Of a stretch of DNA of 64,000 bases, positions 40,309 to 64,000 are shown one piece after another. The notes beneath the pieces were generated by a model. The model was given only the letters and a program-made list of their open reading frames with translations, had not been told where the DNA came from and made no database searches. Position numbers and translations under genes: made by a program. This DNA is from Trypanosoma brucei (taxonomy: Eukaryota): the NCBI GenBank assembly GCA_000002445.1, contig AL929603.2, forward strand, positions 672,001 to 736,000. Direction: 5' to 3'. Each line of letters starts with the position of its first letter. Positions within the stretch are counted from its first letter, which is position 1.

Positions 40309-40979
40309 CTGCGGGGAGGTAAAGCAACATGGCGCTGAAAGGTGTGATGGGCAGGATAAAATATTGGGGGGCTTTGAAGGGGACGTAATTTGAGGTTATG
40401 TCATACGTCTGGCGTGGGTTGTTTCTGAGTTGATCGAACAGATCGTTGTTGCTACGCCAACTGCAGCCAATTGGTAGTGTTAGGGCAGACTCAAACGTAT
40501 ATACATATATACACTGATATAACTTTCCCGTGCTCGTTTCTCATGTTGCACGTGAGGAAGGGAGCGGAACCCTTCCTTGTGGTGACAGTTGGACTAGCCA
40601 TGGTCAGTTACCTCTGTTTGATGTTGCCGACATCTTTCACTTCAGGTATACAAACTTGTAGTGAACAGATGGGAAACAGTGGAGGTAACATCAGACAAAA
40701 AATGTGCTTGTACCAGTCATTTCTCTCACTTGAGCAACATTGTTATTTGACACGTTCTCAGTTTCGTATGCAACAGCAGAAAGTTCAAACATCCCGCTAT
40801 TACGTCTTTTTTTTTCCATCTGCTTCCGCTCTGCCTTGCATGTGCACACGTGCCTGGTCCCTCATACATCCACAAACATGCACACGAAGCGGCAAAGGGA
40901 AGGAAGAGGGGAGTATTTCTACTCGTTATTCTCCAGTAGCAGCCGTGACCAGCACCAGTCCTCCTTTTGCCGGCCTTTA

Positions 40980-41735
40980 ATGGTGCTACAGCATCTTGAA
41001 CTTCTTCGAAAGAAGCGTATTTTGCTCGCGTCTGCCTCACCGCGGCGCCTAGAAATACTTAAAATCATCGGACTTGATGTCCACGTATGTCCATCGGGTG
41101 TTGCAGAGGATTTACCAAAGAGTGAGTTCAAGTGCGGTGGGGATTACGCTCTCTGCACTGCAAAGCTGAAAGCTAAACACATAATTAGACAGAAAATGGA
41201 AGCGGCCAACAGTGGCAGTGGGAAAACGCAAAGTGGTTCACGCAGTCGCTTGCCGTTTGATGTGCTCATTGCGGCTGATACCGTTTCGACGATGCCCGCT
41301 CACGAGGGCGACGGTACAATCGACATCATTGAGAAACCTTCGACCCGCGAGGAGGCGGCCGCCACGATGCGACGGTTGTCTGGAAACTCACATGAGATGT
41401 GGACCGGCGTCGCCATTGCTGTGGTGTGCGGAAAGAACTCCACAGATGACGATGGAGGCGTCGGGGACAACTGTGAGGAGTTGATACGTTGGTTTGAGTT
41501 GAAGGTGTGCACCACCGTGCACTTCGCGGTGTTGTCGGAAGCTGAAATATTGGCTTACACCAGCTGCCCAGATAACTGGGCTGGTAAGGCGGCGGGTTAT
41601 GGTATTCAGGGTATCGCTGCCTGCATGATCCGCTCTATAGAGGGAGATTACTACAATGTTATGGGGCTTCCGCTTCAGGCTGTGTGTGCTTTGTTTGACA
41701 AACTCATCGATGAGGGGATAATTTCACACAATTAG
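40980..41735 (+). CDS. Maf-like nucleoside-triphosphate pyrophosphatase (Maf/septum-formation family)
   Basis: 'ILLASASPRRLEILKIIGL', 'LIAADTVS', 'EKPSTREEAAATMRRLSGNSHEMWTGVAI' and 'GKAAGYGIQGIAACMIRSIEGDYYNVMGLPL' match the Maf signature. Track ORF begins at TTG 40740 and runs through a polypyrimidine tract. I chose the ATG at 40980 (MVLQHLELL...); an earlier ATG at ~40878 is possible. Confidence 0.7.
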   Translation: MVLQHLELLRKKRILLASASPRRLEILKIIGLDVHVCPSGVAEDLPKSEFKCGGDYALCTAKLKAKHIIRQKMEAANSGSGKTQSGSRSRLPFDVLIAADTVSTMPAHEGDGTIDIIEKPSTREEAAATMRRLSGNSHEMWTGVAIAVVCGKNSTDDDGGVGDNCEELIRWFELKVCTTVHFAVLSEAEILAYTSCPDNWAGKAAGYGIQGIAACMIRSIEGDYYNVMGLPLQAVCALFDKLIDEGIISHN

Positions 41736-42236: not shown

Positions 42237-45203
42237 ATGGGATGTGCATGCATCCGCACGAAACCACCGCGGTTCAAGGGTTTTGTTGTTGACGCGTACC
42301 CAAGCGATAGAAAAAACGACAGCCCGGTGCAGGATACCCTCGGGAAACTGGAAAACTACGTGGCAAGCAACCCGGAGCGTATCCCACGCATATGCCGAAA
42401 GATATCCAAGCTCCTAGCACAGGATGAACGGCGAAAACACACGCAACGAATTCTCGTTGGGCTGAAAATGCTAAAAGAACTCATTGTGAACTCCAGTGAG
42501 GTGAGTGGATTTGTTCCCCACTCCATTGATATATGCGCCCGGCTGTTGAATCAACGGTACACGGCGGAAATACGCATTGCAGTGGCCGATGTGATTACAG
42601 CCCTGTGTTTCAAAGTTGTTGGTCACCACGATAGGGAACACTCATGCCATCTCCTTAACCACAGCAAAGACCGGCTCTTACCGCCGTTACTGCAGATGTG
42701 CATGGAGAGACTGACAGAGGTGCGCAAAAGTAGTGACGATTCAAAGGCAGAAGACGGTGGTGGTGGTTTTACCATGGAACTGATGCGCTGCCATCATGCG
42801 GGCGTCGTGGCACTGGGAAACCTTGCTTTTTGCCTGCAGGGTGCTCTTGCAAACAGTGTAAGAGGGGTGGAAACGGCCTTTTTGCTTAACCTTTTGCATG
42901 CGGTGTCTAATGGCGGCCCTGCGATGCAGGAGCAACAGTTCAACATGCTTCACGCACCCGATATGCATGAATTCAGCGCATCTACGAGTTACAATAGTAA
43001 CGGTGGCGCCGACGGGGGTCCATTCCGCAGTGTGTTGCTACCTGATGACAGAAATGAGTGCACAGCTGTGCGCATTGCCGCCGCTGCATGGGGAATTGGC
43101 GCTATTGCATCTTGTGTGCCGAGCGTCAATATACGTGCCTTCCTGCAGAGTGTTCAAAACTTTATCACCGTTCATCGTGTGTGGTCACCACCGCTCTTTC
43201 CCTGTGTTGTGTTCCGTTCGCTGACCCACGCGATGGAGCGCCGGCCACAGCGGCTTGGCTTCTGCGTATGCAAGTTTCTCCATGACTTCGGCAAAGAGAA
43301 GGCAGTGTCCACGAGCTCTGTAAGCAAGCGGGAAAGGGGAAAAGGGAAGAGAGGAATGATGGCTCAAAATACCGCAGGTGTGCTTTCAGGTGTCTTGCAG
43401 GCCTTGGTTGTGTGTGTGAGTGAAGTGCGAATGATTGGTCGAACACCACAAATTCTGATCGACGAGTGGCCAACTGACGCGGTGTTGATAGACTCGAGCC
43501 TTGTCGATGGGCCAGCAATGGAAATATTTGAATTACATCTCAAGTTGGTGTTGCGATTACTGCAGTGCGCATACAGGTGGCAAAACGCCCCTCAACTGCA
43601 CCAACTTCTGCTTAAACTTCTTTACTGCTTGCAGAGGGTGTTGTCGACCTCCACACAAGGCCCTGTGGTCACTGTGGCACTCCAAGCATTGGCGGAAGCG
43701 GCGTCATACATTCGGACAGTTCCGTTTGCCGACCGCAGCGAACTCTCCGCTGCCTCATTTATCGAGCCATACCTTCAAAGCAGTGGCAGCATGCGGCCAC
43801 ACATCGCACGGGTGCTTGCAGGGTTCCTTTCGGGTGCCCCTCCATCCGTTCATACGCCTCCGGACGAACTTGCGGGAGTTGTGAAGGGTCGGAAAGTGCG
43901 AGAGACGGCGGATTCATCCACTGAGCAACTGGAGGCGCACCAGTCGCCACTTTTGACAGACGGACGTGACGTCGCTACGGCTAAGGAATGGTTGCTCTCA
44001 GTTATTGGTAAAAGCAGGGATGACAATAGTGACGTCTCCGCAACGTGTGTTGTGGAAGTGGGGAGGGTTATGGGAGCCCTTCTGCAGGGGTGCGGAGCAG
44101 CAGAACTCAGTTTCGCGCTTGCGGTCGCTGATATGTTGCAGTCGTTTGCCTCAGACACTAAAAAAAATACGGATCTCCACGTGGCGTGGTCGCATCAGTC
44201 ACTCGTAATTCTTGTTAACTGCTCCATTTTTTGCGGTGCCCCGCAGTTATATCGGTATGCTACAGAACTTCTTGAGCAACGCCACAATGCCGGGGAGCTT
44301 TCCACACATTTTTGCCACAATACTGAAGGCGATACGATACGACTCATGCGTCCAAAGCATGGCAGCCAACAGGAAGGAGGACAAGCCAACTTACAGCCAC
44401 TACGCACACAACCGATGGATGAGCCACCGGTGACAATCCGCGTCGACATGGATGTTGTCATCAATATGGTTGCTGAATATGCAACTGAAGAACTAATGAG
44501 TGCGTTACGCTTCCCTCCGCAAGACAACAGGGCATCAAAAAAAAATACAACCGCAGTCGCGGATAGACTGAAGGCGGCGGTAGCAGACGCCTCCTCAGCC
44601 GTACGGCATTCTAAGCAGAGCGTTGAGCCACGACAACATCAACAAAAGGGCGGTCAATCTACGGTAACAGCGGGAGCACAGCGGGATGCATGGGTGTTTT
44701 ATCCCGGCATACTTGACGTACCAGCACCTGAAGCCGATGGCAAGAGTCAAGCAAGTGAGTGTGGTCCCAGACTCTCTGTGATAGTTGATAGTGAAAAGAT
44801 ACCTGCTCAGGATTCAGCTGAAACAACGCATGGTGTAGGCGGGCAACCGTTGTTTGTTCTGCCGGTACGGGAGCGTATTGCAGAACTGCTTGCAAGGCAT
44901 AATGTTGGGCCAACCACAACATTAATACCTCCGGGCTCCAATTTCACACCACTTCCCCTTCCGTTGGGTGTACGATCACTTCATGTGGACCCGACGGCTG
45001 ACGGCATGCCCGCTGAGGAGCCGGCCCCACAGTCCCGTGCCACTAACGAAAGGAGAGTAAAGCAACATGAATTCAGCAACGGCGGCTGGAAACGCCACAT
45101 GCCAACGAGTAGCAATGGTAGCAAAGTTGTCCACGGTGACAGTGCGGGGAGCGATGACGCTGACGGAGCGTCTTTCAGTTCAATTAGTGCGTCAAGTGTC
45201 TGA
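42237..45203 (+). CDS. EFR3-like protein (candidate plasma-membrane PI4-kinase scaffold) with an N-terminal dual-acylation motif
   Basis: Track ORF starts at GTG 42150. The first ATG, at 42237, gives 'MGCACIRTKPPRFKGFVVDAYPSD...', which parallels the human EFR3A N-terminus 'MPTRVCCCCSALRPRYKRLVDNIFPED'. The downstream match continues: 'LENYVASNPERIPRICRKISKLL' against 'LTFYAVSAPEKLDRIGSYLAERL'. A polypyrimidine tract and AG lie immediately upstream of 42237. Confidence 0.55.
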   Translation: MGCACIRTKPPRFKGFVVDAYPSDRKNDSPVQDTLGKLENYVASNPERIPRICRKISKLLAQDERRKHTQRILVGLKMLKELIVNSSEVSGFVPHSIDICARLLNQRYTAEIRIAVADVITALCFKVVGHHDREHSCHLLNHSKDRLLPPLLQMCMERLTEVRKSSDDSKAEDGGGGFTMELMRCHHAGVVALGNLAFCLQGALANSVRGVETAFLLNLLHAVSNGGPAMQEQQFNMLHAPDMHEFSASTSYNSNGGADGGPFRSVLLPDDRNECTAVRIAAAAWGIGAIASCVPSVNIRAFLQSVQNFITVHRVWSPPLFPCVVFRSLTHAMERRPQRLGFCVCKFLHDFGKEKAVSTSSVSKRERGKGKRGMMAQNTAGVLSGVLQALVVCVSEVRMIGRTPQILIDEWPTDAVLIDSSLVDGPAMEIFELHLKLVLRLLQCAYRWQNAPQLHQLLLKLLYCLQRVLSTSTQGPVVTVALQALAEAASYIRTVPFADRSELSAASFIEPYLQSSGSMRPHIARVLAGFLSGAPPSVHTPPDELAGVVKGRKVRETADSSTEQLEAHQSPLLTDGRDVATAKEWLLSVIGKSRDDNSDVSATCVVEVGRVMGALLQGCGAAELSFALAVADMLQSFASDTKKNTDLHVAWSHQSLVILVNCSIFCGAPQLYRYATELLEQRHNAGELSTHFCHNTEGDTIRLMRPKHGSQQEGGQANLQPLRTQPMDEPPVTIRVDMDVVINMVAEYATEELMSALRFPPQDNRASKKNTTAVADRLKAAVADASSAVRHSKQSVEPRQHQQKGGQSTVTAGAQRDAWVFYPGILDVPAPEADGKSQASECGPRLSVIVDSEKIPAQDSAETTHGVGGQPLFVLPVRERIAELLARHNVGPTTTLIPPGSNFTPLPLPLGVRSLHVDPTADGMPAEEPAPQSRATNERRVKQHEFSNGGWKRHMPTSSNGSKVVHGDSAGSDDADGASFSSISASSV

Positions 45204-45983
45204 TCCGTCAGAGCGCCTCGAAAAAAAAACTCAGGTGGGCGTCGTCTTTGTCAGTTGTTATTTCTGTTACTTTAATTTCTATCGTCAAACAGTGACAATC
45301 CCAATTCCTTTAGTCTGTGTGCCTTTATTTTCTTCCAGCTCGAACTACATGCACTTCCAAACAAGTAAATCTTGTTGCTGTGCAGTAAAGCGCCCGTGCT
45401 ATCCGATGCACGTGCTCGCAAGAGCTTTGCTTTTCGTGTTAGGGAATCGGCTCCCTGGTAAACACGTTAAATATATATATATATATATTTATATTAATAC
45501 ACATATTACCTCCCCTCCTACCTCTGCCAACGGCAAAAAGAAGTGTATAACGCGGTGTTTTTTCACGCTATTTATTATTTTTTTTCCCCCTTTCGGCACA
45601 AAGTATTTATTACACCTCTACTTTCTGTGCCTGTGCGATTTTCTCCTTTCTTTGTGTGCGTGTGCGTGGTGTTTCACCTTTTGGGTGCACTGCCCCTATG
45701 CCAGACACATGAACGAACACACAAACACACCACTGTCGATACGTGTTGCACAATGGCGTCCTTTGGGCACCAATTTCTTCTTACTTATTTATCACTTCTT
45801 CTCTTCATCATATCCCCCTTCTTTCGTTACCCGCATGTATTATTCATTAGGTTGATAAGGGGGGTTAGGGTTAGGTCGAAGGGGAAAAAAGAAAAAAAAA
45901 CGGTAGCTTTCAAAGGGGGAAACACTCAACGCCAGCAAACAAAGTTACACCAACAGCGAGCGAAACGGGTAAAGTGAAACATC

Positions 45984-48602
45984 ATGTCGTTGGGTACGCC
46001 ATGTGGGCCATTGGACGGCGAGAGGGCTTCCATCGATCTTCAGCACTGCAACGCGGACGGTGAGGCGGCGGCGCTGATTCAACCAACAGTGACGGAAGGC
46101 CTACCCGTCGCCTGCGCTTTCACAATAACAAACTATCGTTTTACTATACGCGAGTTACCCAGTAGCAACGAGAAGGATAAGGACGAACACGGCAAATGTG
46201 AAGGCCTTCACTTCTCCATGCCGTTGCTTTCAATTGAATCGTGGAGTGCACCGCGTGTGGCAATGACGGCGGCACTCCGCGCCGTGTTCCAGCAGGGCCG
46301 CGGGCAAACAATACCCGAGGCGGATACGGGCGTAGCGGAAGCGTCGGCAGCTTCCAAAGGGGGAGCGGAACTACCGGCGTACAAGCTGAAGATTTGCACA
46401 AAACATCTTTGGGATGTGGAGCTTCTGCTACAGGGAAAACGCATGGAGGGTACTGGAAGGAGTTTAGAGGCACTTCGCGTTGTCCAGCATCTGAAGGATA
46501 TGCCAGCCTTTGAACTCTATGCAAAGAGATACAAGGGCCGCCCTGAAGTTGAAGACCCAAGCGGCGATGCTGGACACAACCATGAAGGAGGCAGCGGCGG
46601 CAACGCGGATGAGGATCTTATCAATTCTGTTGAGTTTGGCTGGAACTTGTACAATGAGGACCGGGAACTGGAGCGGCAGTTGTGTCTTTCTCCGGGTAGT
46701 GAAATACCAAGCGTTAGCGATACACAACGGGCGGGGCCGATGCGAGACCTGCGCCCATGGTTTCGGCTTACGCGAGTTCAACAGCCGCTTAATAGGTACG
46801 GTAGGACACCAACGTATCCTTTCCGTATCGTAGTGCCCAATGCTGCCAGTGATGAACTGCTATTAGATGTTATGTCGGCCCGTTCACGCGCACGCATTCC
46901 GGCGGTGTCGTTTGTTTACCTCCGCAATGGCGCCGCATTAGCTCGTTGCTCACAGCCACTCACGCGCTCGTCGTTGATGCGCGCCGACGGCGAGTTGTGC
47001 AGCATGTTGACTAACGACTACACCGAACATAATGCTGCGCCCAATCAAGATATGAGCAAAACCCGTGCTGCTGCAGCAGCCGTGGTGGAAACTGTGGCAC
47101 AAACCTCCACAAAACCTCCGCCACCCCTATTCGACACGGACGTAGAAGAGGGGAAGACATCGGGAAAAGAAACTTGCGGTTCCTCCCCTGTTAATCAGCA
47201 GCAGGAGGATTTGCCACGGCGGCAGCGGACACTCGTAGTTATGGATTGTCGCCCGTATTCTGCAGCGCTGGGTAATGCTAACTTAGGTGGCGGATATGAA
47301 AACGGTTCCACGCACTACTTTTGTGACGTGAGGTTTGGTAACATTGAAAATATTCATGCCGTCAGTAAGTCCTTTGCAAAGTTGAAGGAGCTCATTCAGC
47401 GGTTCAGCGGAACGGAACCGAAAAGTGGCTTCCTTCAAAAGTTGCATGAAACCAAATGGCTCCAGCATATACAGAATGTGATGCAGTGCTCGAATAACAT
47501 TGCGGATTCGCTTGAGCGTGGTGAGTCTTGCCTCGTACATTGCACGGATGGCTGGGATCGCACCCCGCAGACTGTCGCGACCGCAATGCTCCTGTTGGAT
47601 CCTTTTTACAGAACCATTGTGGGGTTCTGTGTGTTAGTGGAAAAGGAATTTTGTTCGATGGGCCATAAGTTTGCTGAGCGTTGCAGTCACCAAGTGAAGG
47701 GAGACACGGTTTATGTCTTGGACCCTGGTGTTTCAGCGTCAGACACGGAAGCGCAACCTCCAAGCCAACAACAACATCAGCAGCAGCAGCAACTTCAGCC
47801 CTCACCCATCTTTGTGCAGTGGATGGATGTAGTGTTTCAAATTGTGAGGCAATTCCCGCGTCGCTTCGAATTCACCCCGCGGCTGCTGGAATATCTGAGC
47901 ACTGAGGTTTATGCCTGTCTTCATGGAACGTTTCTCTGCAACGGGGAAAAGGAACGAATGTTTGAGGGAGTTCGCTTGAACACAGCCTCCATATGGACTG
48001 ATATTGTGCGGACTGCATTGAGGGAACGGGAGGGAAAAGCACCGCTTTACTTTGTTAACCCCGCATATGACTCAGCGGCGGCGTGGGAATTCATATCAAA
48101 GAGGAAAGGATGTGGTATCAATCGCATCTCCCCCAATTGCAGTAGCAAGCGCATTGTATTTTGGGAATCCTTTTATTTGCGCCATGATGGTGACACCGGC
48201 AGCACCGAGTTGCTCGATGCATTGGCATACGAACACATGCACCAAAAAAGGGGTACCACAACACCTGTCGGAGTTAAGTTTCATGAGGAATGGGAAAAAT
48301 ATTTTAATGACCTCATCCGTGAGGCCTGTGAAGCCCGAAAACGGGAGGTGGTTGAAATGAGGAACCTTCAACAAAATCTCGAAGTGCAGCGCCCTCCCCA
48401 AGGCGTGGATTCAACTTCACGGTCAAGTGGTCCGAAAATGTGTCATTGGTGTCATAAAACTTTCGGTTTGCTTAGTAAATTCACTACTGTGCGGTGTAGT
48501 CACTGTGGACACATCCATTGTAGTGACTGTATGGAAACTGAAGTTAAGGGCAAAAAACTCTGCCGTAGTTGCTATAGTGCACACAAGTTAAATAGTGCAT
48601 AG
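45984..48602 (+). CDS. myotubularin-family phosphoinositide 3-phosphatase with a C-terminal FYVE-like zinc finger
   Basis: PH-GRAM region with 'FTITNYRFTI'. Active-site 'CLVHCTDGWDRTPQ' (CX5R). 'SMGHKFAERCSH' follows the myotubularin pattern. The C-terminal Cys/His cluster is 'CHWCHKTFGLL...RCSHCGHIHCSDC...CRSCY'. Confidence 0.75.
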   Translation: MSLGTPCGPLDGERASIDLQHCNADGEAAALIQPTVTEGLPVACAFTITNYRFTIRELPSSNEKDKDEHGKCEGLHFSMPLLSIESWSAPRVAMTAALRAVFQQGRGQTIPEADTGVAEASAASKGGAELPAYKLKICTKHLWDVELLLQGKRMEGTGRSLEALRVVQHLKDMPAFELYAKRYKGRPEVEDPSGDAGHNHEGGSGGNADEDLINSVEFGWNLYNEDRELERQLCLSPGSEIPSVSDTQRAGPMRDLRPWFRLTRVQQPLNRYGRTPTYPFRIVVPNAASDELLLDVMSARSRARIPAVSFVYLRNGAALARCSQPLTRSSLMRADGELCSMLTNDYTEHNAAPNQDMSKTRAAAAAVVETVAQTSTKPPPPLFDTDVEEGKTSGKETCGSSPVNQQQEDLPRRQRTLVVMDCRPYSAALGNANLGGGYENGSTHYFCDVRFGNIENIHAVSKSFAKLKELIQRFSGTEPKSGFLQKLHETKWLQHIQNVMQCSNNIADSLERGESCLVHCTDGWDRTPQTVATAMLLLDPFYRTIVGFCVLVEKEFCSMGHKFAERCSHQVKGDTVYVLDPGVSASDTEAQPPSQQQHQQQQQLQPSPIFVQWMDVVFQIVRQFPRRFEFTPRLLEYLSTEVYACLHGTFLCNGEKERMFEGVRLNTASIWTDIVRTALREREGKAPLYFVNPAYDSAAAWEFISKRKGCGINRISPNCSSKRIVFWESFYLRHDGDTGSTELLDALAYEHMHQKRGTTTPVGVKFHEEWEKYFNDLIREACEARKREVVEMRNLQQNLEVQRPPQGVDSTSRSSGPKMCHWCHKTFGLLSKFTTVRCSHCGHIHCSDCMETEVKGKKLCRSCYSAHKLNSA

Positions 48603-52455: not shown

Positions 52456-53505
52456 ATGTCGACATCAAAATCTGAAAAAGGTGAAGAAAGTTTTGCAGAG
52501 GGAGAAAGTAATAACGAAAGTGATGATGACAGTGGTAATGATGGCGGGCATGAAGCAAATAATAATAATAATAATTGCAACAATGGAAGTGCTGAGGCCT
52601 GCACAAAAGAAGAGACACCGGTGGCACGGAACGGGAATAATAGCGAATCCCCGCCACAACAAGAAGAGAAACCCGCCACCCAGTCCAGTATTCTTGCGCT
52701 TTCTTGGTGTTGGGGAATGGTGGATCTTTTAAGGCTGAAAAATTTCACAGAGTTAACAGAGGTGAATGTTAACAACTGTGTTGACCTCGCAACTCTAATG
52801 GGACTGAAATATTGCAAGAAATTGAAAAGACTTAATCTCCACAAGTGTACAAAACTACAAGACCTGTCGGAAGCGGGGAGTTGCTGGAGGTTGGAGACTT
52901 TGATTGTGTGCGAATGCGAGCGACTCGAAAATTTGAGAGGGTTGGGGGGTCATCAGAGATTATCGTGCGTCAGAATTTCCCGCTGTGGGATGCTCGCCGA
53001 GGTAAACCTCGACGGTACCGTAAAGCTCAAAAAATTGTCCATTGACGAATGCTGGGCACTGAAAGAGGTTTATGTAACAAGATGTAAAACATTAGAATCG
53101 GTTGCACTTGTCGACTGCAGCCGACTAAAGAGTTTGTGTGGGCTCGTCCACCTGGTGTCTCTAAAATCACTTAATCTGGAGGGGTGCATAAGCATCGCGG
53201 AAATCGGGACCTTGAACACAAATAATAAGTTGGAAAGACTCAACCTTGGAAATTGCTTTATGTTGACAGATATGGAATTTCTGAATCACTGCATGAAGCT
53301 GAAGAGAGTGGTGGCTCTGGGAGTCCCCATAGATGAAGTGGTGAAAAGTAATTTAAGGAATAGGGGCGTCAGAGTTATTGATGAAAACGATGTGGATGAA
53401 TCATACAAGTGTTACCAACGACAATATCTGGAACGGGCATCCGTTGCGGAAAAGTCGTTACAGTGGGAGGAAAATGTTAAGGAAATTCTCTCGTACCCTC
53501 GTTAA
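52456..53505 (+). CDS. leucine-rich repeat protein
   Basis: Tandem ~23-25-aa LRRs, e.g. 'LKRLNLHKCTKLQDLS', 'LETLIVCECERLENLRGL', 'LKKLSIDECWALKEV' and 'LKSLNLEGCISIAEI'. The acidic N-terminus has a poly-N run. It is the last gene of the + array. Confidence 0.6.
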   Translation: MSTSKSEKGEESFAEGESNNESDDDSGNDGGHEANNNNNNCNNGSAEACTKEETPVARNGNNSESPPQQEEKPATQSSILALSWCWGMVDLLRLKNFTELTEVNVNNCVDLATLMGLKYCKKLKRLNLHKCTKLQDLSEAGSCWRLETLIVCECERLENLRGLGGHQRLSCVRISRCGMLAEVNLDGTVKLKKLSIDECWALKEVYVTRCKTLESVALVDCSRLKSLCGLVHLVSLKSLNLEGCISIAEIGTLNTNNKLERLNLGNCFMLTDMEFLNHCMKLKRVVALGVPIDEVVKSNLRNRGVRVIDENDVDESYKCYQRQYLERASVAEKSLQWEENVKEILSYPR

Positions 53506-53650
53506 TGTGCCATACAAAATTATAGGCTTCGCAAACTAGTGAACATTATACATTGAACATATGTGCATACATGACTGGTTTTGATTGCATTATGTCGCCA
53601 GCCTTCTAAAGCTGACAACGCTCAGCTTAGTTGACTTACGCTTTTTACAT

Positions 53651-53678
53651 CCCAGCCCCTGCACGTGGTAGGGCTGGG
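53651..53678. other. GC-rich perfect 8-bp inverted repeat (hairpin) with a 12-nt loop containing CACGTG, 150 nt past the LRR gene stop
   Basis: 'CCCAGCCC ctgcacgtggta GGGCTGGG'. Confidence 0.5.
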
Positions 53679-54850
53679 GCACAAATGACACATAAAGAGA
53701 AAGAAGGAAACTAACGCAGAGAAATTGGAAATGAAGAGGGAGGAAGCCCTTCAGGTATTTGTCGTGTGGCATTTATGTTGCAGGTTTGCAAACTTTTTCT
53801 CTCAGTTACTTTACCACAAGGGAATGTAGAGACTGGATGAGGGAATTGTCCGTATGTCCGTCACGACAATGGCGGGGAGGAGGCGTGGGTGGGAAACGTA
53901 ACTCAGGGATGGCTGCGCGTCGCCACGAAAGTGAGACACGGCCTGCCAGAACCCTGAGCCAGGCGAGTAACCAAGCACGAGATCAGGTTAACGAAAACGG
54001 GAAGCAGGAGAACATTGCGAGCTCCTCTTTTTTTTTTCTTTTCCTCATGGTGTGGTGAGGCTGTGTCCCGTTTTAAACACCTAAAACACTTCCTGGCATC
54101 GCCGTCGAAGGGCAGACAGGAATAGACGCGAAATGTAACTGCACTTTTTCGCACTTGCCGGGGCGCGCCGCAGGGGGTGCACAAACAGCTGGGAGGGACA
54201 AGGCTGCCGGCACGCCCCTCATGTTTCATTGGGTTCCGACGCGACGCGGCAACGGGGACTCGCTTACAAACGGATTTGAAGAGAGGGGGACCACCCATAA
54301 GCGAATTTGTATTCGTTTTCCGGCGTGACGCTCCTCTTTTTCTTCCCCCACCTCGCCTGACGATACTGAACAAGCCGCTCACGGGCCTGGGCTCCTCAAC
54401 TTCCGCCGCGGTACGGGCACAGGCAATGGAGCCGTCTCCTCCTTGCCGTGCGGGTGAAAAGAGTTAGCCCCATCGTTCCATTCCGCACTTCGGCACCACC
54501 CTGCATTCAACCCCCAAGGAGAAATTGGCGCGCGGCTACCCACCCTCTGTCGTGGGATATCGCGGGTCCCTGCTCTGTCGGGCCCGTCAAAACGCCAAGA
54601 TCCCTTATTTGCGCGATTTCATCACCCATGCCGACGATCCTTGGGCTCAATCAAAAACCCAGCGCGGCAACAGCAACAAACGACCCACTGCGGCGCACAA
54701 ATTCAAATGAATCACGACTGCCATCCGACGGCATCTCATAAACCGGTATGCGCCGGGGCCCACAGCCGATCGCACACTTCTCTAAGTTATCACATCGTTC
54801 CAAACTCCTACCGGCAGCAAAAAGGCACGCCGAGGAAGCTTTTCTTTCCG

Positions 54851-54867
54851 CCCCCCCCCCCCCCCCC
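54851..54867. repeat. C17 homopolymer (G17 on the minus strand) inside the strand-switch region
   Basis: 'ccgccccccccccccccccccaacc'. Confidence 0.85.
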
Positions 54868-56537
54868 AACCGAAGGACTTACGAGTTTTCTTTAAGCAGG
54901 CAGCAGCGGCAATAAAGAGGGGGGCGATATATTCTGGGTCAAACAGACGCCGAGCAACATTCGCGGCGTCAGACCCAAAGCCAACGGAAGTAAAGAAGTT
55001 GCAACCGTAAAAACAGGAACACAAGCCAAAAATAAAAATGGTAAAGAAAAAAGGAAAAAAATGGGGACTGCGCGACTTAGCACGTGCACATTAACGACCG
55101 CTAAAGCAAAGAATACTCCGCACGTAATGCATTTACGTCGCTTAAACTTCATACGGTAGCAAGCACACGCCACAGCGAGCATAAATACATATCAGATTCA
55201 TCCATTTGCTTCCCATCGTATTGCAACAACGTTAGCAAACCTTTGCTTCATGCTGCAGCCCCTAATGATAAAGGTGACCATCCGATCCCACAACGCCAAC
55301 CACGAAGATCCAAAGCACTCAAGATCGTTGGAGTTATTCACAAAAACATGCTTGGAAGCGTTTCATCGCTCCTTCACACAGTCCCTAAAGGTTTAAAAAG
55401 CGTTACCGCGATAGCAAGGAGACCCAAGTGAGTCACCCGTGCCAAAATTTTGAAGATGCCAACAAACAAATATATATCATCCTAGTTACGGTTCAAATAT
55501 ATTGACCGGTGGGTGGACATGAACACACACATACACACATGCAGTTTGCACATGTCAGGAAATTGTGCAGCAACGTTCTGCCTGAGGAATCAAAAGGTGA
55601 AAACGGCTCCCAAAACTTGCAATAGTGGGCGCCTCAGCTGAGGAAATCTTCACAAAAATAAGGAAAGCAATGGTTAACCCTTCACTTCACTACCCGCAAT
55701 ACTCCACCGGAGGTGCCAATGACAGATGGCCACGCAACGGACTTCACCGCGGGGACTTGGCTCGACCAAACAGTTACCAATACTTGGGCGTGGACCGTTG
55801 AGTGCAATGACACGATAACCACACACCCCCGGCACAACAAAGGTGGAACCATGGATTCGCCTTCGGAACCTCAAGAAGATAGACAACCCGCAGCGTCACA
55901 TTTCATAGAATTCACGTTCAGCTGCGGCTCCTGCGCCAAAAAGAAACTGCACGTCCTTTCCTCCTTCCTTAACAGCCTCCCCCACCCGTCAGTCAGAAGT
56001 TATTGCTCGCATCTTACTACAGGTGCATACGGAAAACAAGCGCCACATTCCCCTACCCACAGCAAAGAGTTGGCGCTCGACCTACCATTCATACCCACAT
56101 TCTTGTTTTCCCCCTTATCTCCCCACATGGTTTCAACTCCCGTCAGCGGTTCACAAGTACCAGTATGCTTCCATAAGGCGAATATCTGACAAGAACAATT
56201 CTTTCCACGATGACCAATGTTTCCTGTGCGAATCACCGCAGTAAGGAAATGAAAGGGGATGAAAACCTTCACTTCCATTACCTTAAACAATGCAAATTTA
56301 CATTACACGACCTTTCTCCCACACATACACCATGTTTCGCAGCGCACAACAGCTATTCGCGAACCCTGAAGTCTGACTTTCCCTCAGAAACAGTCTGGTT
56401 GATAATGTCAAAGAAAACTCTCAAACATTAACCAAAGTCTTCGTAGCTTTTAAAAACATCAAGACCTGCATATCGGTTAATAGCCTACTCCTCTTGCAGA
56501 CTTGCTCGACCATTTGATTACATACCCCAAGTCCTCA

Positions 56538-56855
56538 TTATCGATTGACTCCCCGTTCCAACATATCAAGCAAAAGTTCCAAGTACCTCCTGTTTTGCCG
56601 TTGGAGCTGCTTCATTTGATTAGCAAATTCTACACGTATATCCTGCAGTTGTTTCTGCTGCTCATCTCTCAACTGCTCTGGTTGTGCAGTGGAAATAATA
56701 CCCAACTTTCCCAGCTGTTGGCGCATATCCTCCGCCGTGCGTTCATCGTCATTCAAAGATGGCACAAAGTCGCTCAGAATATCCCTAGATCCCTTCAGCG
56801 TCTCCATCGACGATTTGGATTGATCTGGGGTGGCATTTTCTGTCACTTGAAGCAT
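56538..56855 (-). CDS. small coiled-coil protein (hypothetical, 105 aa)
   Basis: ATG-initiated minus-strand ORF. The sequence is E/Q/R/L heptad-like ('QLRDEQQKQLQDIRVEFANQMKQLQRQNRRYLELLLDML'). The overlapping plus-strand ORF is Leu-rich antisense junk. Confidence 0.35.
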   Translation of the reverse strand: MLQVTENATPDQSKSSMETLKGSRDILSDFVPSLNDDERTAEDMRQQLGKLGIISTAQPEQLRDEQQKQLQDIRVEFANQMKQLQRQNRRYLELLLDMLERGVNR

Positions 56856-59562
56856 CGTTTAGTGGCGCTTTCGCCGCTTGAAAGCCAGTGTGGGAAAGTG
56901 CACCCTGGCCCGTGACATTCCCTTGGCTCATCATCAAAACGGAAAAAATAAAGTCGTGCAGCTGTCTTGCGTCTTCCGTGGCCACAATATTTGTCAGAGC
57001 CTCGACGCCAAGTCAATGTATAGGGAGTTAAGCTCTGTTTTGCCGGCCGACCGCCGATCAACATCCCCCACCAAATCCCGAAGTGGTTTTCTGTGTACCT
57101 CGCCTCCGCGTCCGCAACAAACGTTCCACATAGTCACTCACTTTAACCCTCTTTTTTTGGAGCACGTGCGTGCGGTGCGGCGAATGCAAATAGAAACCGG
57201 TAAATATGTTTACAGTCCAAAGAGAAACAACTCAGTGAAGAAATAGCAAGTTTTTCCGCAATGGTATCGCGATTGCGGCTCCCAATTTTCAACGTTCCTC
57301 AAACTACTGTTAGCCCAGCGACTCCCAACAAAAACAATTATATGGGACCAGATTAAACCGACTCTGACATTTTCACGACAGAACCACCCAGCTGAATCAC
57401 AACTCAGTGGAACCACCCGAACAACAAAAAGCACATGTACTCAAATGGGGGGGGGGTCCGAAGCCTTTCCCCAAACAAGCGCGGTATACCATTTCCTCGA
57501 CAAAATAACACTGACAAAGAAACCGCACACAAACACACACACCTCCCATAAATTTACCCCAGCACATTCACTCACAAAGGCATAACCCGCATGAAAATGC
57601 ATGCGCGTGCATGTGTTTGGCGGCATGTGCCATACGATGCCGCTTAGGAGTCGGGCGCAAAACAGGTTGTGTCTGCCGACATGGAAGAGGAAATTAGTGA
57701 TTTTAGATGCACAACCGAAACTGCGACCACAAAAGAAATGGTTCAAGGCAATGGACCGGGCGGGGGACGGGAACCCCAAGCAGACATAACAACACGGTGA
57801 GAAATAATGAACGAAACATTTACCAGCAGGGAATGGGCCGCGCAAGGCGAACCCACAAGCAGAGAAACACAAACACATTAGCATATATTTATGTCGGTAT
57901 GCTTCACCATACGGTTGTACAGTAACAGACGCCCCGTCGATAGACTCAACCGCTTTTTCTGCTCCTCTTTTTATTTACGGGAAAATGAGGAACTGAAATA
58001 ATAATGACAGACTACAGCGTGTGTTTCACGCCTTGCACACACACCTAATTCGTAGCGACAAACTTACATAGGTTATTACGAGAGTAATCCTCTCCATGTG
58101 GTGAAAAGGTGAAAGGGAAAAGTAGCGCCTAGATGAGTTTTGCGCAACGCCCTAACTTGAACTCAGCTGCTACTGTATTTTTTTATTCTTTTTATTTTTC
58201 AACTTTTAGGACATGCGAACGCAACTGCATTACGCGTTGGGAAATACACACAGCAACAAAGCACTTCGGGATCGTGCCAAAACAACCATGCATGTATGTA
58301 TGTATATTAATAAAACGCTTTTACTTGAAATGTAACCTCCCTAGAGCTCATTGGAAAATATAACGGCCCTTCCCGTTTACCCACCCTCCTCGCACAAAAA
58401 CATACATACGTTTATGCATATGTGGATACATTTATAAGATATGCAATGGAAAGGGTGGAAAGGGAACAACAAGACGGAATTAATGGTAGGAGTCGTCATC
58501 TTACGCCTTTTGTCAGCCCTATCCCATGGCACACGCGCACGCACAGGCACTTGCACTTGCACTTGCACTAAACACACTCCGAAAGCACAAGTCAGCGATT
58601 TGCGTGTAAAAACAAAAACACGAGCAGACTCTACGGATGTAAAACAAAAAAAGCAAGTGGTTTCCATTAAACATAAGGCACGGCAAACAGCACAGATATT
58701 TTTCCACATGTATAACGTCATATTGTCTTACATTTTCCATGATGAGTATCTCACCACTGGAGTCACACAAATGTTCCTCTCATGTATTCGAATACCGACC
58801 TTCAGTACCGTGCCCACAAGTATGCACTCGTGAATTTCAACATCAAACATAATAAAGGCAGTCCATCACTTAAATATAAATGTGTGATAAGTTCGTTTCG
58901 GAGTTCCCGCGCCTTTTTTCTCTCTTCTTTTTCTTGTCCTATTATTGCCTTGTTATTATCATTACTATTGTTGTTGTTATTGCTTTTGTAAGCCCTTTCG
59001 ACTAGTGTGCCAAACTTTCGCAATTCGGAAAGATCCGCCCCCGCTCAGCCCACACATACGCACTTCTCTGTTTTAACAGCACGGAGAGAGACGGATGTGT
59101 TTTCATGCGATAAATGATACACGACTTCGTTTGTTTTGCTTCAGCCATATATGCTGCAAACCCAATCTCACATCTCCTTTATACGGCAAACTTATACGAA
59201 AATGACACATAAAACCAAATAGTAGAGATACCTTTTTTTAAAAAAAAAATTAGAAAAATAGAATTCAGCAAGTTGCCCTGAAAGGAAAGAAGATGTGCAC
59301 CGCCCATAAACCACATACACACATACATGTGTGTGTGTATGTGTGTACATATGTGCAATGAGAAAACGAAAGAATTAATTAACTACATCACTTGAAGAAA
59401 AGGAAAAATACAAGAGAAATTCATGGGAAGAATTTTAAAAATAACCAATAGGAATCATCATGCTCGCCACCAGCATCAGCCACAAATAAATAAATGTGTG
59501 TAAAAGAGAGAGAGAAAAAAAAAAGAGAAGAGCCTTCAAATGGCGGTAAGAGTGAAGTGAAT

Positions 59563-59602
59563 AACAATAATAATAATAATAATAATGATAATAATAATAA
59601 TA
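59563..59602. repeat. (AAT)n microsatellite
   Basis: 'aataataataataataataatgataataataataatatt'. Confidence 0.85.
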
Positions 59603-59722
59603 TTTTCTGTGGTGATAACAATAAAACACAATAAGTAGAAAGTGTAGGGTTGGGGAGAAACAGCTGAGCCGGGGCACAGGAAAAGGAAATAAAAATAAAG
59701 GGAATGAGATGTTGTACACAAA

Positions 59723-60211
59723 CTATTTGGATTTCTTCAGACGACTGAATTCCACAGTGAATTGCGATACGGATACCGCATTTCCCGATTTTTCATCATA
59801 TTCCATCCAATCTGTGCTCAAATCCGCTGCCTCAAACGTCGCTCCCTCCGCTTCCACCACCCACTTGTCATCAATCTCCAATTCCGTAGGCGTCGCTCCC
59901 CGCACTTCAATTATCAGTATTGAATTCCCATCGCCTTTTCCATTATCCTCTTCAGGGCGGTACGTGCCGTAACTCTCGGGGTCAATATGTGCAGTGATGA
60001 GAGTTTTGCATGAAGCGCATTTGAAGGCGGCGTTACGCGTCCCGCCACCGCCGCTGTCACATTCCTCGCTCTCATCAACATAAACAAAATTAGGACTGAA
60101 TTCCCTGCAGGCATCACATGTTACTTTCAAACCCCAGTTGCGAGGACGCATTGGGCGAATACAAACAACACCTTCCGTTTCAGCGGACACCGAAAGGCGG
60201 TAAAGTGGCAT
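59723..60211 (-). CDS. DUF866 / CXXC-motif zinc-binding protein (C1orf123-like)
   Basis: 162 aa with two CxxC pairs ('CDAC...' and 'CASC') at the spacing typical of the DUF866 family. ATG start confirmed on the reverse complement. Confidence 0.5.
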   Translation of the reverse strand: MPLYRLSVSAETEGVVCIRPMRPRNWGLKVTCDACREFSPNFVYVDESEECDSGGGGTRNAAFKCASCKTLITAHIDPESYGTYRPEEDNGKGDGNSILIIEVRGATPTELEIDDKWVVEAEGATFEAADLSTDWMEYDEKSGNAVSVSQFTVEFSRLKKSK

Positions 60212-60770
60212 TCGTAAAACTTCAAAGGGATTTTTTTTTAAAAAAAAGGGCTGTTAAGAGTTGAAAGGCAGTGACAGTGCGCAGCGGCTTGCGTGTGTAA
60301 GTAATAAATGTATTTGTTTGGCCTTCCGTATGTGTATCTGCAGGCTTACCTGCGTCTTTTCTTACTTGTTCGTATCTGCTATGAGTACAGAAATGGGGAG
60401 AGAGGAATACTGATGATGTCCCTCAATCCTTACACGATGTTTCACGTCCAACAATAATAGAGGAAAAAGTCTTGTGGCGGGTGATGAGATTTTGTTGCTT
60501 TTTGGGGGAGGAGGGAAATAAAAAGGGGAAAAAGGAGAACAGAGCTCCAAAAAACAAAAAACAAAGGAAATTACGCCACGTGGTGGAGAAACATTGACAA
60601 GGAATACAGCAGAAACGGCCTGCGATGCGACACGGTGGACAAGAAAACCCCCCACATTCTTGGAGGAAATTAATATTCGCGTGGTGACGGTAGTGGTTGG
60701 GGAGGTGACCACTTTAAAAAAAAAAAAGAGAGAGAAAGGAAGGAAGGAAGTGCAGAAACAGTGCAGCAAG

Positions 60771-63770: not shown

Positions 63771-63900
63771 GTTGTGATATCCCTTAACCGCAAATACTAA
63801 TAATAACAATAATAATAATAATAGTGACGGCGGTAGCAATTTAAAAATATATGTAAATAAGTAAATAAATAAGGGGAAAAAAAGAAAGAAAGAAAGAGCA
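63771..63900 (-). promoter_or_regulatory. polypyrimidine tract (minus-strand sense) upstream of the UTP23-like gene
   Basis: The plus strand here is purine-rich ('aataataacaataataataat...ggggaaaaaaagaaagaaagaaagag'), so it is pyrimidine-rich on the coding (-) strand. Confidence 0.4.
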
Positions 63901-64000
63901 CAGATGCGGAAAAGAAAAGTAGAAGCAAACACGCTAAAAGACAAAATCAACATCCGGATTCAGGATATCACACACCTCACCGAAACACGTGGAGAATTAC

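What the first reader, a model, noticed from the sequence alone, without database searches (positions are those of the whole stretch)
45984..48602. Myotubularin with an intact CX5R site, an internal poly-Q insertion and a degenerate FYVE-like C-terminal zinc finger
The active site 'VHCTDGWDRTPQ' (~47529-47565) retains the Cys, Asp and Arg, so the enzyme is probably a catalytically active PI3P/PI(3,5)P2 phosphatase. A 'QQQHQQQQQLQ' insertion (~47761-47800) sits inside the phosphatase domain. The C-terminal 'CHWCHKTFGLLSKFTTVRCSHCGHIHCSDC...CRSCY' has FYVE-like cysteine spacing but lacks the basic R(R/K)HHCR PI3P-binding motif, reading 'HWCHKTF' instead. The finger may therefore not bind PI3P, suggesting altered targeting compared with MTMR3/4.
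Basis: partly seen in the sequence, partly recalled or inferred. Interest (0 to 1): 0.5.

Follow-up and report, generated by a model that had tools for sequence, protein, structure and literature searches.

The report
Trypanosome myotubularin with variant FYVE finger
This is the already catalogued Trypanosoma brucei myotubularin lipid phosphatase (Tb927.1.3300); its catalytic site is intact, and its C-terminal zinc finger is a conserved FYVE-family variant that lacks the residues normally used to bind the lipid PI3P.

Summary
Window 45984..48602 (+) is one intact 872-aa ORF. It has a strong myotubularin phosphatase domain (Pfam E 1.9e-96), an intact HCTDGWDR active site, a Q-rich tract inside the phosphatase domain and a C-terminal eight-cysteine finger. 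The gene is Tb927.1.3300, listed in the 2007 TriTryp phosphatome as a myotubularin with a FYVE domain.

Profile alignments place non-basic residues opposite R(R/K)HHCR with no register shift. None of 21 orthologous fingers has the motif.

The poly-Q is a T. brucei-specific lengthening of a variable patch inside a loop insertion conserved in all 11 aligned orthologues.

Verdict: an ordinary, known gene. The modest addition is that the annotated "PI3P-binding FYVE" is probably not a canonical PI3P reader.

The parts
45984..48602 (+). Complete CDS of the 872-aa myotubularin, identified as Tb927.1.3300 (stop codon included)
   Evidence: ORF list. Orthologues in T. congolense (73%), T. vivax, T. 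cruzi and others. The identification rests on the 872-aa length given for Tb927.1.3300 in PMC2175518, not on a sequence match.
46011..46523 (+). N-terminal PH-GRAM-like domain (aa ~10-180) with a lineage-specific loop insertion
   Evidence: hhalign of the orthologue N-termini against the PH-GRAM regions of animal MTMs: probability 73.6%, E 2.9e-5, 81 columns. It aligns the TNYR, (V/M)PL..I and FAF/PAF motifs. There was no direct Pfam or PDB sequence hit.
46632..47957 (+). Myotubularin-like phosphatase domain (aa 217-658)
   Evidence: Pfam PF06602, E 1.9e-96, 323.5 bits. Best solved relative is MTMR2 (1zsq), E 9.5e-59.
46983..47204 (+). Insertion 1 in the phosphatase domain (aa 334-407; about 63 aa more than MTMR2). 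Low-complexity, containing the conserved PPP(P/S)L(F/L)(D/E) motif at nt 47115-47135
   Evidence: Gap between aligned segments with MTMR2. P379, P380 and L382 are invariant. Motif coordinates.
47535..47570 (+). Active-site loop VHCTDGWDRTPQ (aa 518-529). C520 is the nucleophile and R526 the CX5R arginine; H519 precedes the Cys
   Evidence: Coordinates. V518 through T527 are invariant in 11 orthologues. Aligned with the MTMR2 P-loop.
47700..47795 (+). Insertion 2 in the phosphatase domain (aa 573-604; 32 aa against 5 in MTMR2). Conserved G-D..D-GV..SDTE core followed by a variable Q/S-rich patch
   Evidence: G573, D580, G582, V583, S586, D587 and T588 are invariant.
47766..47798 (+). Q-rich tract QQQHQQQQQLQ (mixed CAA/CAG codons), the T. 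brucei-specific lengthening of the variable patch
   Evidence: DNA and coordinates. In the alignment the gapped patch holds 13 aa in T. brucei, 8 in T. congolense, 11 in T. vivax, a poly-Ser run in T. theileri, and 6 in T. cruzi.
48285..48380 (+). Long amphipathic helix (aa 768-799) before the finger, ending in the conserved L-x-V-x-R-x-P motif
   Evidence: AlphaFold2 model of aa 758-872: helix at model residues 11-42, block pLDDT 88-97. R785 and V801 are invariant.
48381..48431 (+). Flexible linker (aa 800-816) between the helix and the finger
   Evidence: pLDDT below 50 for model residues 50-57, and no secondary structure. Length varies among orthologues.
48441..48599 (+). C-terminal FYVE-family zinc finger (C820, C823, C838, C841, C846, C849, C860, C863) plus a short terminal helix. 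It lacks WxxD and R(R/K)HHCR, and has KLC in place of RVC

Best explanation
The ORF encodes the catalytically competent myotubularin of Trypanosoma brucei (Tb927.1.3300).

Architecture: an N-terminal PH-GRAM-like domain; a myotubularin phosphatase domain with two conserved loop insertions; a long helix; a flexible linker; and a two-zinc, cross-braced FYVE-family finger.

Inferred mechanism: C520 in the HCTDGWDR loop removes the 3-phosphate from PI3P and/or PI(3,5)P2, as in MTMR2.

The finger is a conserved short-hairpin FYVE subtype. Its cysteine spacing (12-4-10 in most orthologues) and its C-x-x-C-H-E-K-F-G-Φ-F signature match the rabphilin/Slp4/melanophilin (FYVE_2) fingers better than the canonical FYVE. 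It lacks every PI3P-pocket motif. It therefore most likely does not read PI3P stereospecifically. Instead it probably acts as a structural or protein-interaction module, or as a weak electrostatic and hydrophobic membrane anchor. It is net basic and keeps a hydrophobic pair at the position of the membrane-insertion loop.

The poly-Q is a neutral, species-specific lengthening of a surface-loop patch.

Shown here: gene identity, domain composition, conservation, fold, and absence of the motifs. Inferred: substrate, catalytic activity, lack of PI3P binding, and the role of the finger.
For: - Gene and family: Pfam Myotub-related E 1.9e-96; MTMR2 E 9.5e-59.
- Active site: HCTDGWDRT is invariant. 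N431, N456, K562 and R566 align with MTMR2 N330, N355, R459 and R463 (the roles of these residues are recalled from the MTMR2 structure papers).
- H519 is retained. Its absence was the argument for calling the paralogue Tb927.6.870 inactive (PMC2927912).
- In vivo relevance: RNAi knock-down and heterozygous premature stop codons in Tb927.1.3300 confer resistance to diaminothiazole compound 38 (PMC10350920).
- Finger sequence: eight Cys, K858 and G828 conserved; 0 of 21 orthologues have the His-His pair, and many have Glu there.
- Finger profiles (hhalign): against canonical FYVE, score 61.6, E 5e-14, with an 8-residue deletion; against FYVE_2 fingers, score 72.3, E 2.3e-16, ungapped.
- PDB profile search: Slp4 2.3e-5 and rabphilin 9.3e-5, ahead of Vps27, Hrs and EEA1.
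- Poly-Q: the length of the patch varies between species, while the flanking insertion is conserved.
Against: - No biochemical data exist for this protein's activity or lipid binding.
- The finger is net basic (+5 in T. brucei; +2 to +8 across orthologues). It keeps a basic residue two positions before Cys7 (RVC-like) and usually one three positions before Cys3. A non-canonical phosphoinositide site, as reported for some variant FYVE domains, cannot be excluded.
- InterPro/SMART FYVE (IPR000306) did call this protein in 2007.
- The finger model is only moderately confident (mean pLDDT 78). The full-length model failed (pLDDT 43), so any packing of the finger against the catalytic domain is unknown.
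Confidence: 0.72

Rival explanations
1. The helix plus finger forms a Rab-effector-like (Slp-homology/rabphilin-type) GTPase-binding module. The phosphatase would then be recruited to membranes by a small GTPase rather than by its lipid substrate.
For: - Best PDB sequence hits are Slp4 and rabphilin-3A.
- Full-length Pfam FYVE_2 match over aa 769-869, profile positions 6-106, E 1e-4. The T. congolense and T. vivax orthologues carry precomputed PF02318 hits.
- 7 of 10 database proteins matched in one stretch across helix and finger are bona fide FYVE_2 proteins, some with C2 domains.
- Helix plus finger against FYVE_2 by hhalign: E 1.3e-14.
Against: - Helix-only against SHD1 helix-only is not significant (E 0.23, probability 0.3%), so the signal comes from the finger.
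- The protein ends 9 residues after the last Cys. The second Rab-binding segment (SHD2, SGAWFF-type) is therefore missing.
- The helix and finger are separated by a predicted disordered linker, unlike in rabphilin.
- The Pfam FYVE_2 score is below its cut-off (22.9 against 27.2).
Confidence: 0.1
2. The finger still binds a phosphoinositide (PI3P or another species) through a non-canonical basic surface, so the enzyme is substrate-targeted after all.
For: - Net positive charge in all 21 orthologue fingers.
- K or R two residues before Cys7 in 21 of 21; K/R three before Cys3 in 12 of the 21.
- A hydrophobic pair (LL, FF, IF, WF) after the conserved F-G, at the position of Vps27 'FSLL'.
- The FYVE fold is retained.
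- ZFYVE27 (protrudin) and CARP2, which are variant FYVE domains, are among the structural neighbours.
Against: - All three motifs that define PI3P recognition are absent (motif definition: PMC8233823).
- An acidic residue frequently occupies the first His position (SREQC, SKEYC).
- The T. brucei clade has a 2-residue insertion exactly at the pocket.
- The hairpin that carries part of the pocket is 8 residues shorter.
Confidence: 0.15
3. The protein is a pseudophosphatase, or the ORF is a decaying gene. On this view the Q-tract and loop insertions disrupt the catalytic domain.
For: Two large insertions (about 63 aa and 27 aa more than MTMR2) lie inside the phosphatase domain. The full-length AF2 model was of low confidence.
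Against: - The ORF is intact, with a conserved start and stop.
- All catalytic and aligned substrate-contact residues are conserved.
- Both insertions contain invariant motifs and occur in all 11 aligned orthologues, so they are old and tolerated.
- Loss of function gives a drug-resistance phenotype (PMC10350920).
- The low pLDDT is explained by an 11-sequence alignment.
Confidence: 0.03

Closest known systems
Tb927.1.3300, 'zinc-binding phosphatase, putative', the myotubularin-related phosphatase of Trypanosoma brucei
   Same: Identified as the same gene. The 872-aa length matches, trypanosome orthologues are found, and a database variant differs at 3 residues. It was listed in the TriTryp phosphatome with InterPro Myotubularin-related, FYVE/PHD-type and FYVE-type signatures. 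It was later the top RNAi resistance hit for a diaminothiazole.
   Different: Nothing differs at gene level. The published description calls the finger a 'PI3P binding FYVE domain' (PMC2175518). The analysis here shows that the PI3P-binding motifs are absent.
Human MTMR2 / MTM1 (active myotubularins; PDB 1zsq, 1lw3)
   Same: PH-GRAM plus phosphatase core, a CX5R loop of the C(S/T)DGWDR type, and aligned substrate-contact Asn/Arg positions.
   Different: The trypanosome protein has Thr instead of Ser after the catalytic Cys and Lys for R459. It has two loop insertions (about 63 and 27 extra residues). It carries a zinc finger at the C-terminus, where (from general knowledge, not checked here) MTMR2 has a coiled coil and PDZ-binding motif.
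Metazoan MTMR3 / MTMR4 (myotubularins with a canonical C-terminal FYVE)
   Same: The same order of modules: PH-GRAM, phosphatase, helical segment, FYVE-family finger. MTMR3-like proteins P0014 and P0015 are among the best non-kinetoplastid hits.
   Different: MTMR3-like fingers carry WxxD, RKHHCR and RVC, with spacing 12-4-18. The trypanosome finger has none of these motifs and has spacing 14-4-10. No orthology with any human MTM was found in the published tree.
Rab-effector FYVE_2 zinc fingers (rabphilin-3A 1zbd, Slp4/granuphilin 5x6t, melanophilin 2zet; Pfam PF02318)
   Same: Identical cysteine spacing class (12-4-10/11), a C-x-x-C-H-E-x-F/L-G-x-F signature, a preceding long helix, and no PI3P motifs. 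These are the best sequence-profile and structure matches.
   Different: There is no SHD2/SGAWFF segment after the finger. The helix similarity is not significant alone. A disordered linker sits between helix and finger. The host protein is a lipid phosphatase, not a vesicle-tethering effector.
Variant FYVE-like domains (CARP2 1y02; ZFYVE27/protrudin 1x4u)
   Different: Different sequence signatures and host architectures. Their reported ligand properties are also recalled from memory and were not tested here.

Membership tests
Myotubularin phosphatases (Pfam PF06602) | Myotubularin-like phosphatase domain above the curated cut-off | tested here: met
   323.5 bits against a cut-off of 25, E 1.9e-96, aa 217-658.
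Myotubularin phosphatases (active subgroup) | CX5R loop with Cys, Asp and Arg, plus the His preceding the Cys | tested here: met
   V518-H-C-T-D-G-W-D-R-T527 is invariant in 11 orthologues. Criterion taken from PMC2927912.
Myotubularin phosphatases | N-terminal PH-GRAM domain | tested here: inconclusive
   hhalign against animal MTM PH-GRAM regions: probability 73.6%, E 2.9e-5. No Pfam GRAM hit and no PDB profile hit.
Myotubularin phosphatases | 3-phosphatase activity on PI3P / PI(3,5)P2 | not testable with these tools
   Needs an enzyme assay. There is only indirect genetic evidence of function (PMC10350920).
Canonical PI3P-binding FYVE domain (Pfam PF01363 / SMART SM00064) | Eight zinc-coordinating Cys in the cross-braced spacing, and the FYVE fold | tested here: met
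Canonical PI3P-binding FYVE domain | R(R/K)HHCR basic motif before and around the third Cys | tested here: not met
   T. brucei has TTVR-C-S. 0 of 21 orthologues have the His-His pair. Profile alignments show no register shift.
Canonical PI3P-binding FYVE domain | N-terminal WxxD motif | tested here: not met
   No Trp or Asp at the corresponding positions upstream of Cys1 (SRSSGPKM-C). The orthologues lack it as well.
Canonical PI3P-binding FYVE domain | RVC motif before the seventh Cys | tested here: not met
   T. brucei has K-L-C. Only one distant orthologue (P0028) has RVC. A basic residue is kept in 21 of 21.
Canonical PI3P-binding FYVE domain | Pfam FYVE score above the gathering cut-off | tested here: not met
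   12.4-18.6 bits against a cut-off of 27.8. All 11 orthologue fingers match, but none reaches the cut-off.
Rab-effector Slp-homology / rabphilin-type domain (Pfam FYVE_2, PF02318) | Short-hairpin zinc finger of the FYVE_2 type | tested here: met
   Ungapped hhalign to 8 FYVE_2 fingers: score 72.3, E 2.3e-16. Slp4 and rabphilin are the top PDB hits.
Rab-effector Slp-homology / rabphilin-type domain | Pfam FYVE_2 score above the gathering cut-off | tested here: not met
   22.9 bits against a cut-off of 27.2 for the T. brucei protein. 9 of 11 orthologue fingers match, with best E 1.3e-6.
Rab-effector Slp-homology / rabphilin-type domain | SHD1 Rab-binding helix before the finger | tested here: inconclusive
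   A long helix is present, but the helix-only profile comparison is not significant (E 0.23).
Rab-effector Slp-homology / rabphilin-type domain | SHD2 segment (SGAWFF-type) after the finger | tested here: not met
   The protein ends 9 residues after Cys8 (YSAHKLNSA*). No orthologue has more than 14 residues there.
RING / PHD fingers | Best match to RING or PHD profiles or folds | tested here: not met

The most novel reading that the evidence does not exclude
The kinetoplastid active myotubularin may carry a rabphilin/Slp-type (FYVE_2-like) helix-plus-finger module. It could use this to dock onto a small GTPase or another protein rather than onto PI3P. That would mean Rab-effector-type FYVE fingers predate animals and were coupled to a PI3P phosphatase early in eukaryote evolution. 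It would also make the finger a parasite-specific handle on the pathway that modulates sensitivity to ITPK1-directed diaminothiazoles.
Probability: 0.1. Interest if true: 0.55.

Novelty: already known. Interest (0 to 1): 0.25.

Why it matters
The gene and its domain layout have been in the literature since 2007, so nothing new is discovered at gene level. The useful correction is that the domain described there as a PI3P-binding FYVE lacks every PI3P-pocket motif in all 21 orthologues examined, and is closer to Rab-effector fingers.

This bears on how the enzyme finds its membrane. It is the only predicted active PI 3-phosphatase of the myotubularin type in T. brucei, since the paralogue Tb927.6.870 is predicted inactive. 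Loss of this enzyme gives resistance to an anti-trypanosomal compound series (PMC10350920), so its targeting mechanism has some practical interest. None of this would surprise a specialist, because variant FYVE domains are common.

Tried and rejected
1. Full-length AlphaFold2 with the 11-sequence alignment gave pLDDT 43. It is unusable, so nothing can be said about inter-domain packing or the loop conformations.
2. The N-terminal profile against PDB sequences gave no meaningful hit. PH-GRAM was supported only by profile-profile comparison.
3. The listing of cluster members on 10 distant orthologues returned no organism names. The taxonomic span beyond named Trypanosoma species is therefore unknown.
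4. Literature searches for 'FYVE-like/FYVE-related/rabphilin' and for 'zinc-binding phosphatase' found nothing relevant. The 2020 T. brucei phosphoinositide review does not list this gene in its table.
5. RING or PHD identity of the finger was considered and rejected.
6. A register-shifted canonical FYVE was considered and rejected.
7. A rabphilin-like Rab-binding domain was kept only as a low-probability rival, after the helix-only control failed and SHD2 was found absent.
8. The short ORFs at 45067..45855 and 45543..45977, and the antisense ORFs inside the gene, are low-complexity or overlapping frames with no support. They were disregarded.
9. A tRNA scan of the window was empty.
Full report
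**Observation**

The window carries a single uninterrupted ORF at 45984..48602 on the + strand, 872 aa. Long same-strand ORFs without introns and AT-rich intergenic tracts are typical of a trypanosomatid.

They lie within a few bases of the approximate positions given:
- VHCTDGWDRTPQ: aa 518-529, nt 47535-47570.
- QQQHQQQQQLQ: aa 595-605, nt 47766-47798.
- The cysteine finger: nt 48441 to 48575.

**Identity**

Pfam gives Myotub-related (PF06602) at E 1.9e-96 over aa 217-658. The best solved relative is human MTMR2 at E 9.5e-59.

The database search returns a near-identical protein differing at 3 residues. It also returns orthologues named 'zinc-binding phosphatase' in T. congolense (73%), T. 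vivax (61%), T. theileri, T. cruzi and T. rangeli.

The TriTryp phosphatome paper names the 872-aa T. brucei myotubularin Tb927.1.3300. Its supplement lists that gene with InterPro signatures for Myotubularin-related, FYVE/PHD-type and FYVE-type zinc finger, and the text describes the architecture as including a 'PI3P binding FYVE domain' (PMC2175518). The gene and its layout are therefore already known.

A 2023 drug-discovery paper found this gene to be the top RNAi hit for resistance to a 2,4-diaminothiazole. Both resistant lines had acquired premature stop codons in it (PMC10350920). That is indirect evidence that the protein is functional in vivo.

**Catalytic domain**

In an alignment of 11 orthologues (38-73% identical to the query), the whole loop V518-H-C-T-D-G-W-D-R-T527 is invariant.

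The histidine before the cysteine is retained. Kerk and Moorhead used its absence to argue that the paralogue Tb927.6.870 is inactive (PMC2927912).

By the MTMR2 alignment, N431, N456, K562 and R566 sit opposite MTMR2 N330, N355, R459 and R463. The substrate-contact role of those MTMR2 residues is recalled from the MTMR2 structure papers and was not tested here.

The N-terminus has no Pfam or PDB sequence hit. A profile-profile comparison with the PH-GRAM regions of animal myotubularins gives probability 73.6% and E 2.9e-5. It aligns the TNYR, PL..I and (P/F)AF landmarks around a loop insertion.

An active PI3P/PI(3,5)P2 3-phosphatase is the well-supported inference, although the activity itself is untested.

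**The Q-tract**

Relative to MTMR2 the phosphatase domain has two insertions: aa 334-407 (74 residues against 11) and aa 573-604 (32 against 5). Both occur in all 11 aligned orthologues and contain invariant residues:
- P379, P380 and L382 of a PPP(P/S)L(F/L)(D/E) motif in the first insertion.
- G573, D580, G582, V583, S586, D587 and T588 of a G-D..D-GV..SDTE motif in the second.

The Q-run is the variable tail of the second insertion. That patch holds 13 residues in T. brucei, 8 in T. congolense, 11 in T. vivax, a poly-Ser run in T. theileri, and 6 in T. cruzi. It is encoded by mixed CAA/CAG codons.

It is best read as a species-specific low-complexity lengthening of a surface loop, not as a functional novelty.

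**The finger**

All eight cysteines are invariant in the aligned orthologues.

A whole-library HMMER search with the helix-plus-finger profile found 214 proteins at E <= 0.001. Among the hits examined, nine full-length proteins plus one fragment carry the finger at their C-terminus and match Myotub-related. The ten other hits tested are genuine FYVE or FYVE_2 proteins. The finger therefore belongs to the FYVE superfamily.

A profile of 21 orthologue fingers aligns to a profile of 50 canonical FYVE domains with probability 98% and E 5e-14.

- then endofin, EEA1, ALFY, Slp4, ZFYVE19, RIM2 and ZFYVE27

**Missing PI3P motifs**

The motifs that define PI3P recognition are WxxD, R(R/K)HHCR and RVC (PMC8233823). 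They are missing here:
- T. brucei reads TTVR-C-S where RRHH-C-R should be.
- Profile alignments to Vps27, Hrs and the canonical set put the two sequences in the same register.
- 0 of 21 orthologues have the His-His pair. Many have a glutamate there instead.
- The T. brucei/T. congolense/T. vivax clade has a 2-residue insertion exactly at this site.
- RVC is K-L-C in T. brucei, although a basic residue is kept at that position in all 21.

Pfam FYVE and FYVE_2 both stay below their gathering cut-offs.

**What kind of FYVE**

The finger is not simply decayed. Most orthologues have spacing 12-4-10; T. brucei has 14-4-10. The conserved signature C-(W)-x-C-H-E-K-F-G-Φ-F matches the Rab-effector FYVE_2 fingers (rabphilin, Slp4, melanophilin and their database relatives). 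Finger-only hhalign scores:

| Comparison | Score | E-value | Alignment |
|---|---|---|---|
| Kinetoplastid MTM finger vs FYVE_2 fingers | 72.3 | 2.3e-16 | ungapped |
| Kinetoplastid MTM finger vs canonical FYVE | 61.6 | 5e-14 | 8-residue deletion |
| FYVE_2 fingers vs canonical FYVE | 46.6 | 2.3e-10 | 8-residue gap |

The PDB profile search ranks Slp4 (2.3e-5) and rabphilin (9.3e-5) above Vps27, Hrs and EEA1. Seven of ten database proteins matched in a single stretch across helix and finger are true FYVE_2 proteins.

This raised the possibility of a rabphilin-like Rab-binding module, which I tested:
- The helix alone does not match the SHD1 helix (E 0.23).
- The helix is separated from the finger by a predicted disordered linker.
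- The protein ends 9 residues after the last cysteine, so SHD2 is absent.
- EEA1's coiled-coil-FYVE aligns about as well as the Rab effectors.

I therefore keep the Rab-effector idea only as a low-probability rival.

**Mechanism**

Shown: a myotubularin with all catalytic residues, and a conserved two-zinc FYVE-fold finger without the PI3P pocket.

Inferred: the enzyme dephosphorylates PI3P and/or PI(3,5)P2. The finger does not read PI3P stereospecifically. It probably contributes protein-protein contacts or low-specificity membrane affinity. It is net basic (+2 to +8) and keeps a hydrophobic pair at the position of the Vps27 membrane-insertion loop. The helix may mediate oligomerisation, as coiled coils do in animal myotubularins; that comparison is drawn from memory. 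A non-canonical phosphoinositide site cannot be excluded.

**Novelty and score**

The gene, its family and its 'FYVE' annotation are published. The only addition is that the annotated PI3P-binding FYVE is a conserved, FYVE_2-like variant lacking the PI3P motifs. I did not find that point in the searchable literature. Variant FYVE domains are a well-known kind, so a specialist would not be surprised. Interest is low to moderate (0.25).

**Dead ends**

- The full-length structure model failed.
- The cluster look-up gave no taxon names.
- The 2020 T. brucei phosphoinositide review does not list the gene in its table.

Noticed in passing
window 42237..45203 (+): The gene immediately upstream encodes a 988-aa protein starting MGCACIRTKPP (an acylation-type Met-Gly-Cys start). 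It has a sub-threshold match to the EFR3 armadillo repeat (PF21052, E 1e-4, 23 bits against a cut-off of 27.6, aa 46-108). It may be a divergent EFR3, which from general knowledge is the plasma-membrane scaffold of PI 4-kinase IIIα. That would place two phosphoinositide-pathway genes side by side.
   Followed up: partly
window 47115..47135 (aa 378-384) and orthologues: A PPP(P/S)L(F/L)(D/E) motif is conserved in all 11 aligned orthologues, inside an otherwise variable, low-complexity insertion of the phosphatase domain. It is duplicated in P0010 and P0011. It looks like a short linear interaction motif of unknown partner.
   Followed up: no
window 47700..47756 (aa 573-591): The conserved half of the second loop insertion carries an invariant D-x-GV-x-x-SDTE stretch, with Ser586 in a casein-kinase-2-type context (S-x-x-E). 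It is a possible regulatory phosphorylation loop close to the substrate-binding helix.
   Followed up: no
C-termini of orthologues P0003-P0008 (…EW(N/Y/D)S…) and P0026, P0027, P0030, P0042, P0062, P0075, P0116 (…DDE, NDE, NGD, EDA, VDE, PSD): Most Trypanosoma orthologues end in a conserved Glu-Trp motif just after the finger, and the distant orthologues end in short acidic tails. T. brucei and T. congolense have lost the Trp (HKLNSA, HELKS).
   Followed up: no
window ~53500..60770: Plus-strand genes stop at about 53.5 kb and minus-strand genes begin at about 60.8 kb. GC skew changes sign at 54 kb and GC content is low. This is a convergent strand-switch region between two polycistronic units. 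It contains no tRNA gene.
   Followed up: partly
window 40740..41735 (+), 52456..53505 (+), 60771..61820 (-), 62457..63953 (-): Other neighbours: a Maf-like protein (PF02545, E 7e-43); a leucine-rich-repeat protein; a protein with a weak bromodomain match (E 8e-4, below cut-off); and a protein with a UTP23 sensor motif match (24.9 bits against a cut-off of 15).
   Followed up: partly
database proteins P0023, P0024, P0025, P0029, P0031 (hits): Very large proteins carry 6-19 tandem FYVE-type fingers. Two of the multi-FYVE hits tested (P0023, P0032) also have GAF domains. Most of their fingers lack the canonical R(R/K)HHCR motif, yet P0023 scores 470 bits on Pfam FYVE. Non-canonical FYVE repeats appear to be abundant in unnamed environmental eukaryotes.
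   Followed up: partly
window 45984..48602 versus P0001: The window protein differs from the closest database sequence at three residues (D67G, G197D, L331F), with the same Q-tract length. This is ordinary strain or subspecies variation.
   Followed up: yes
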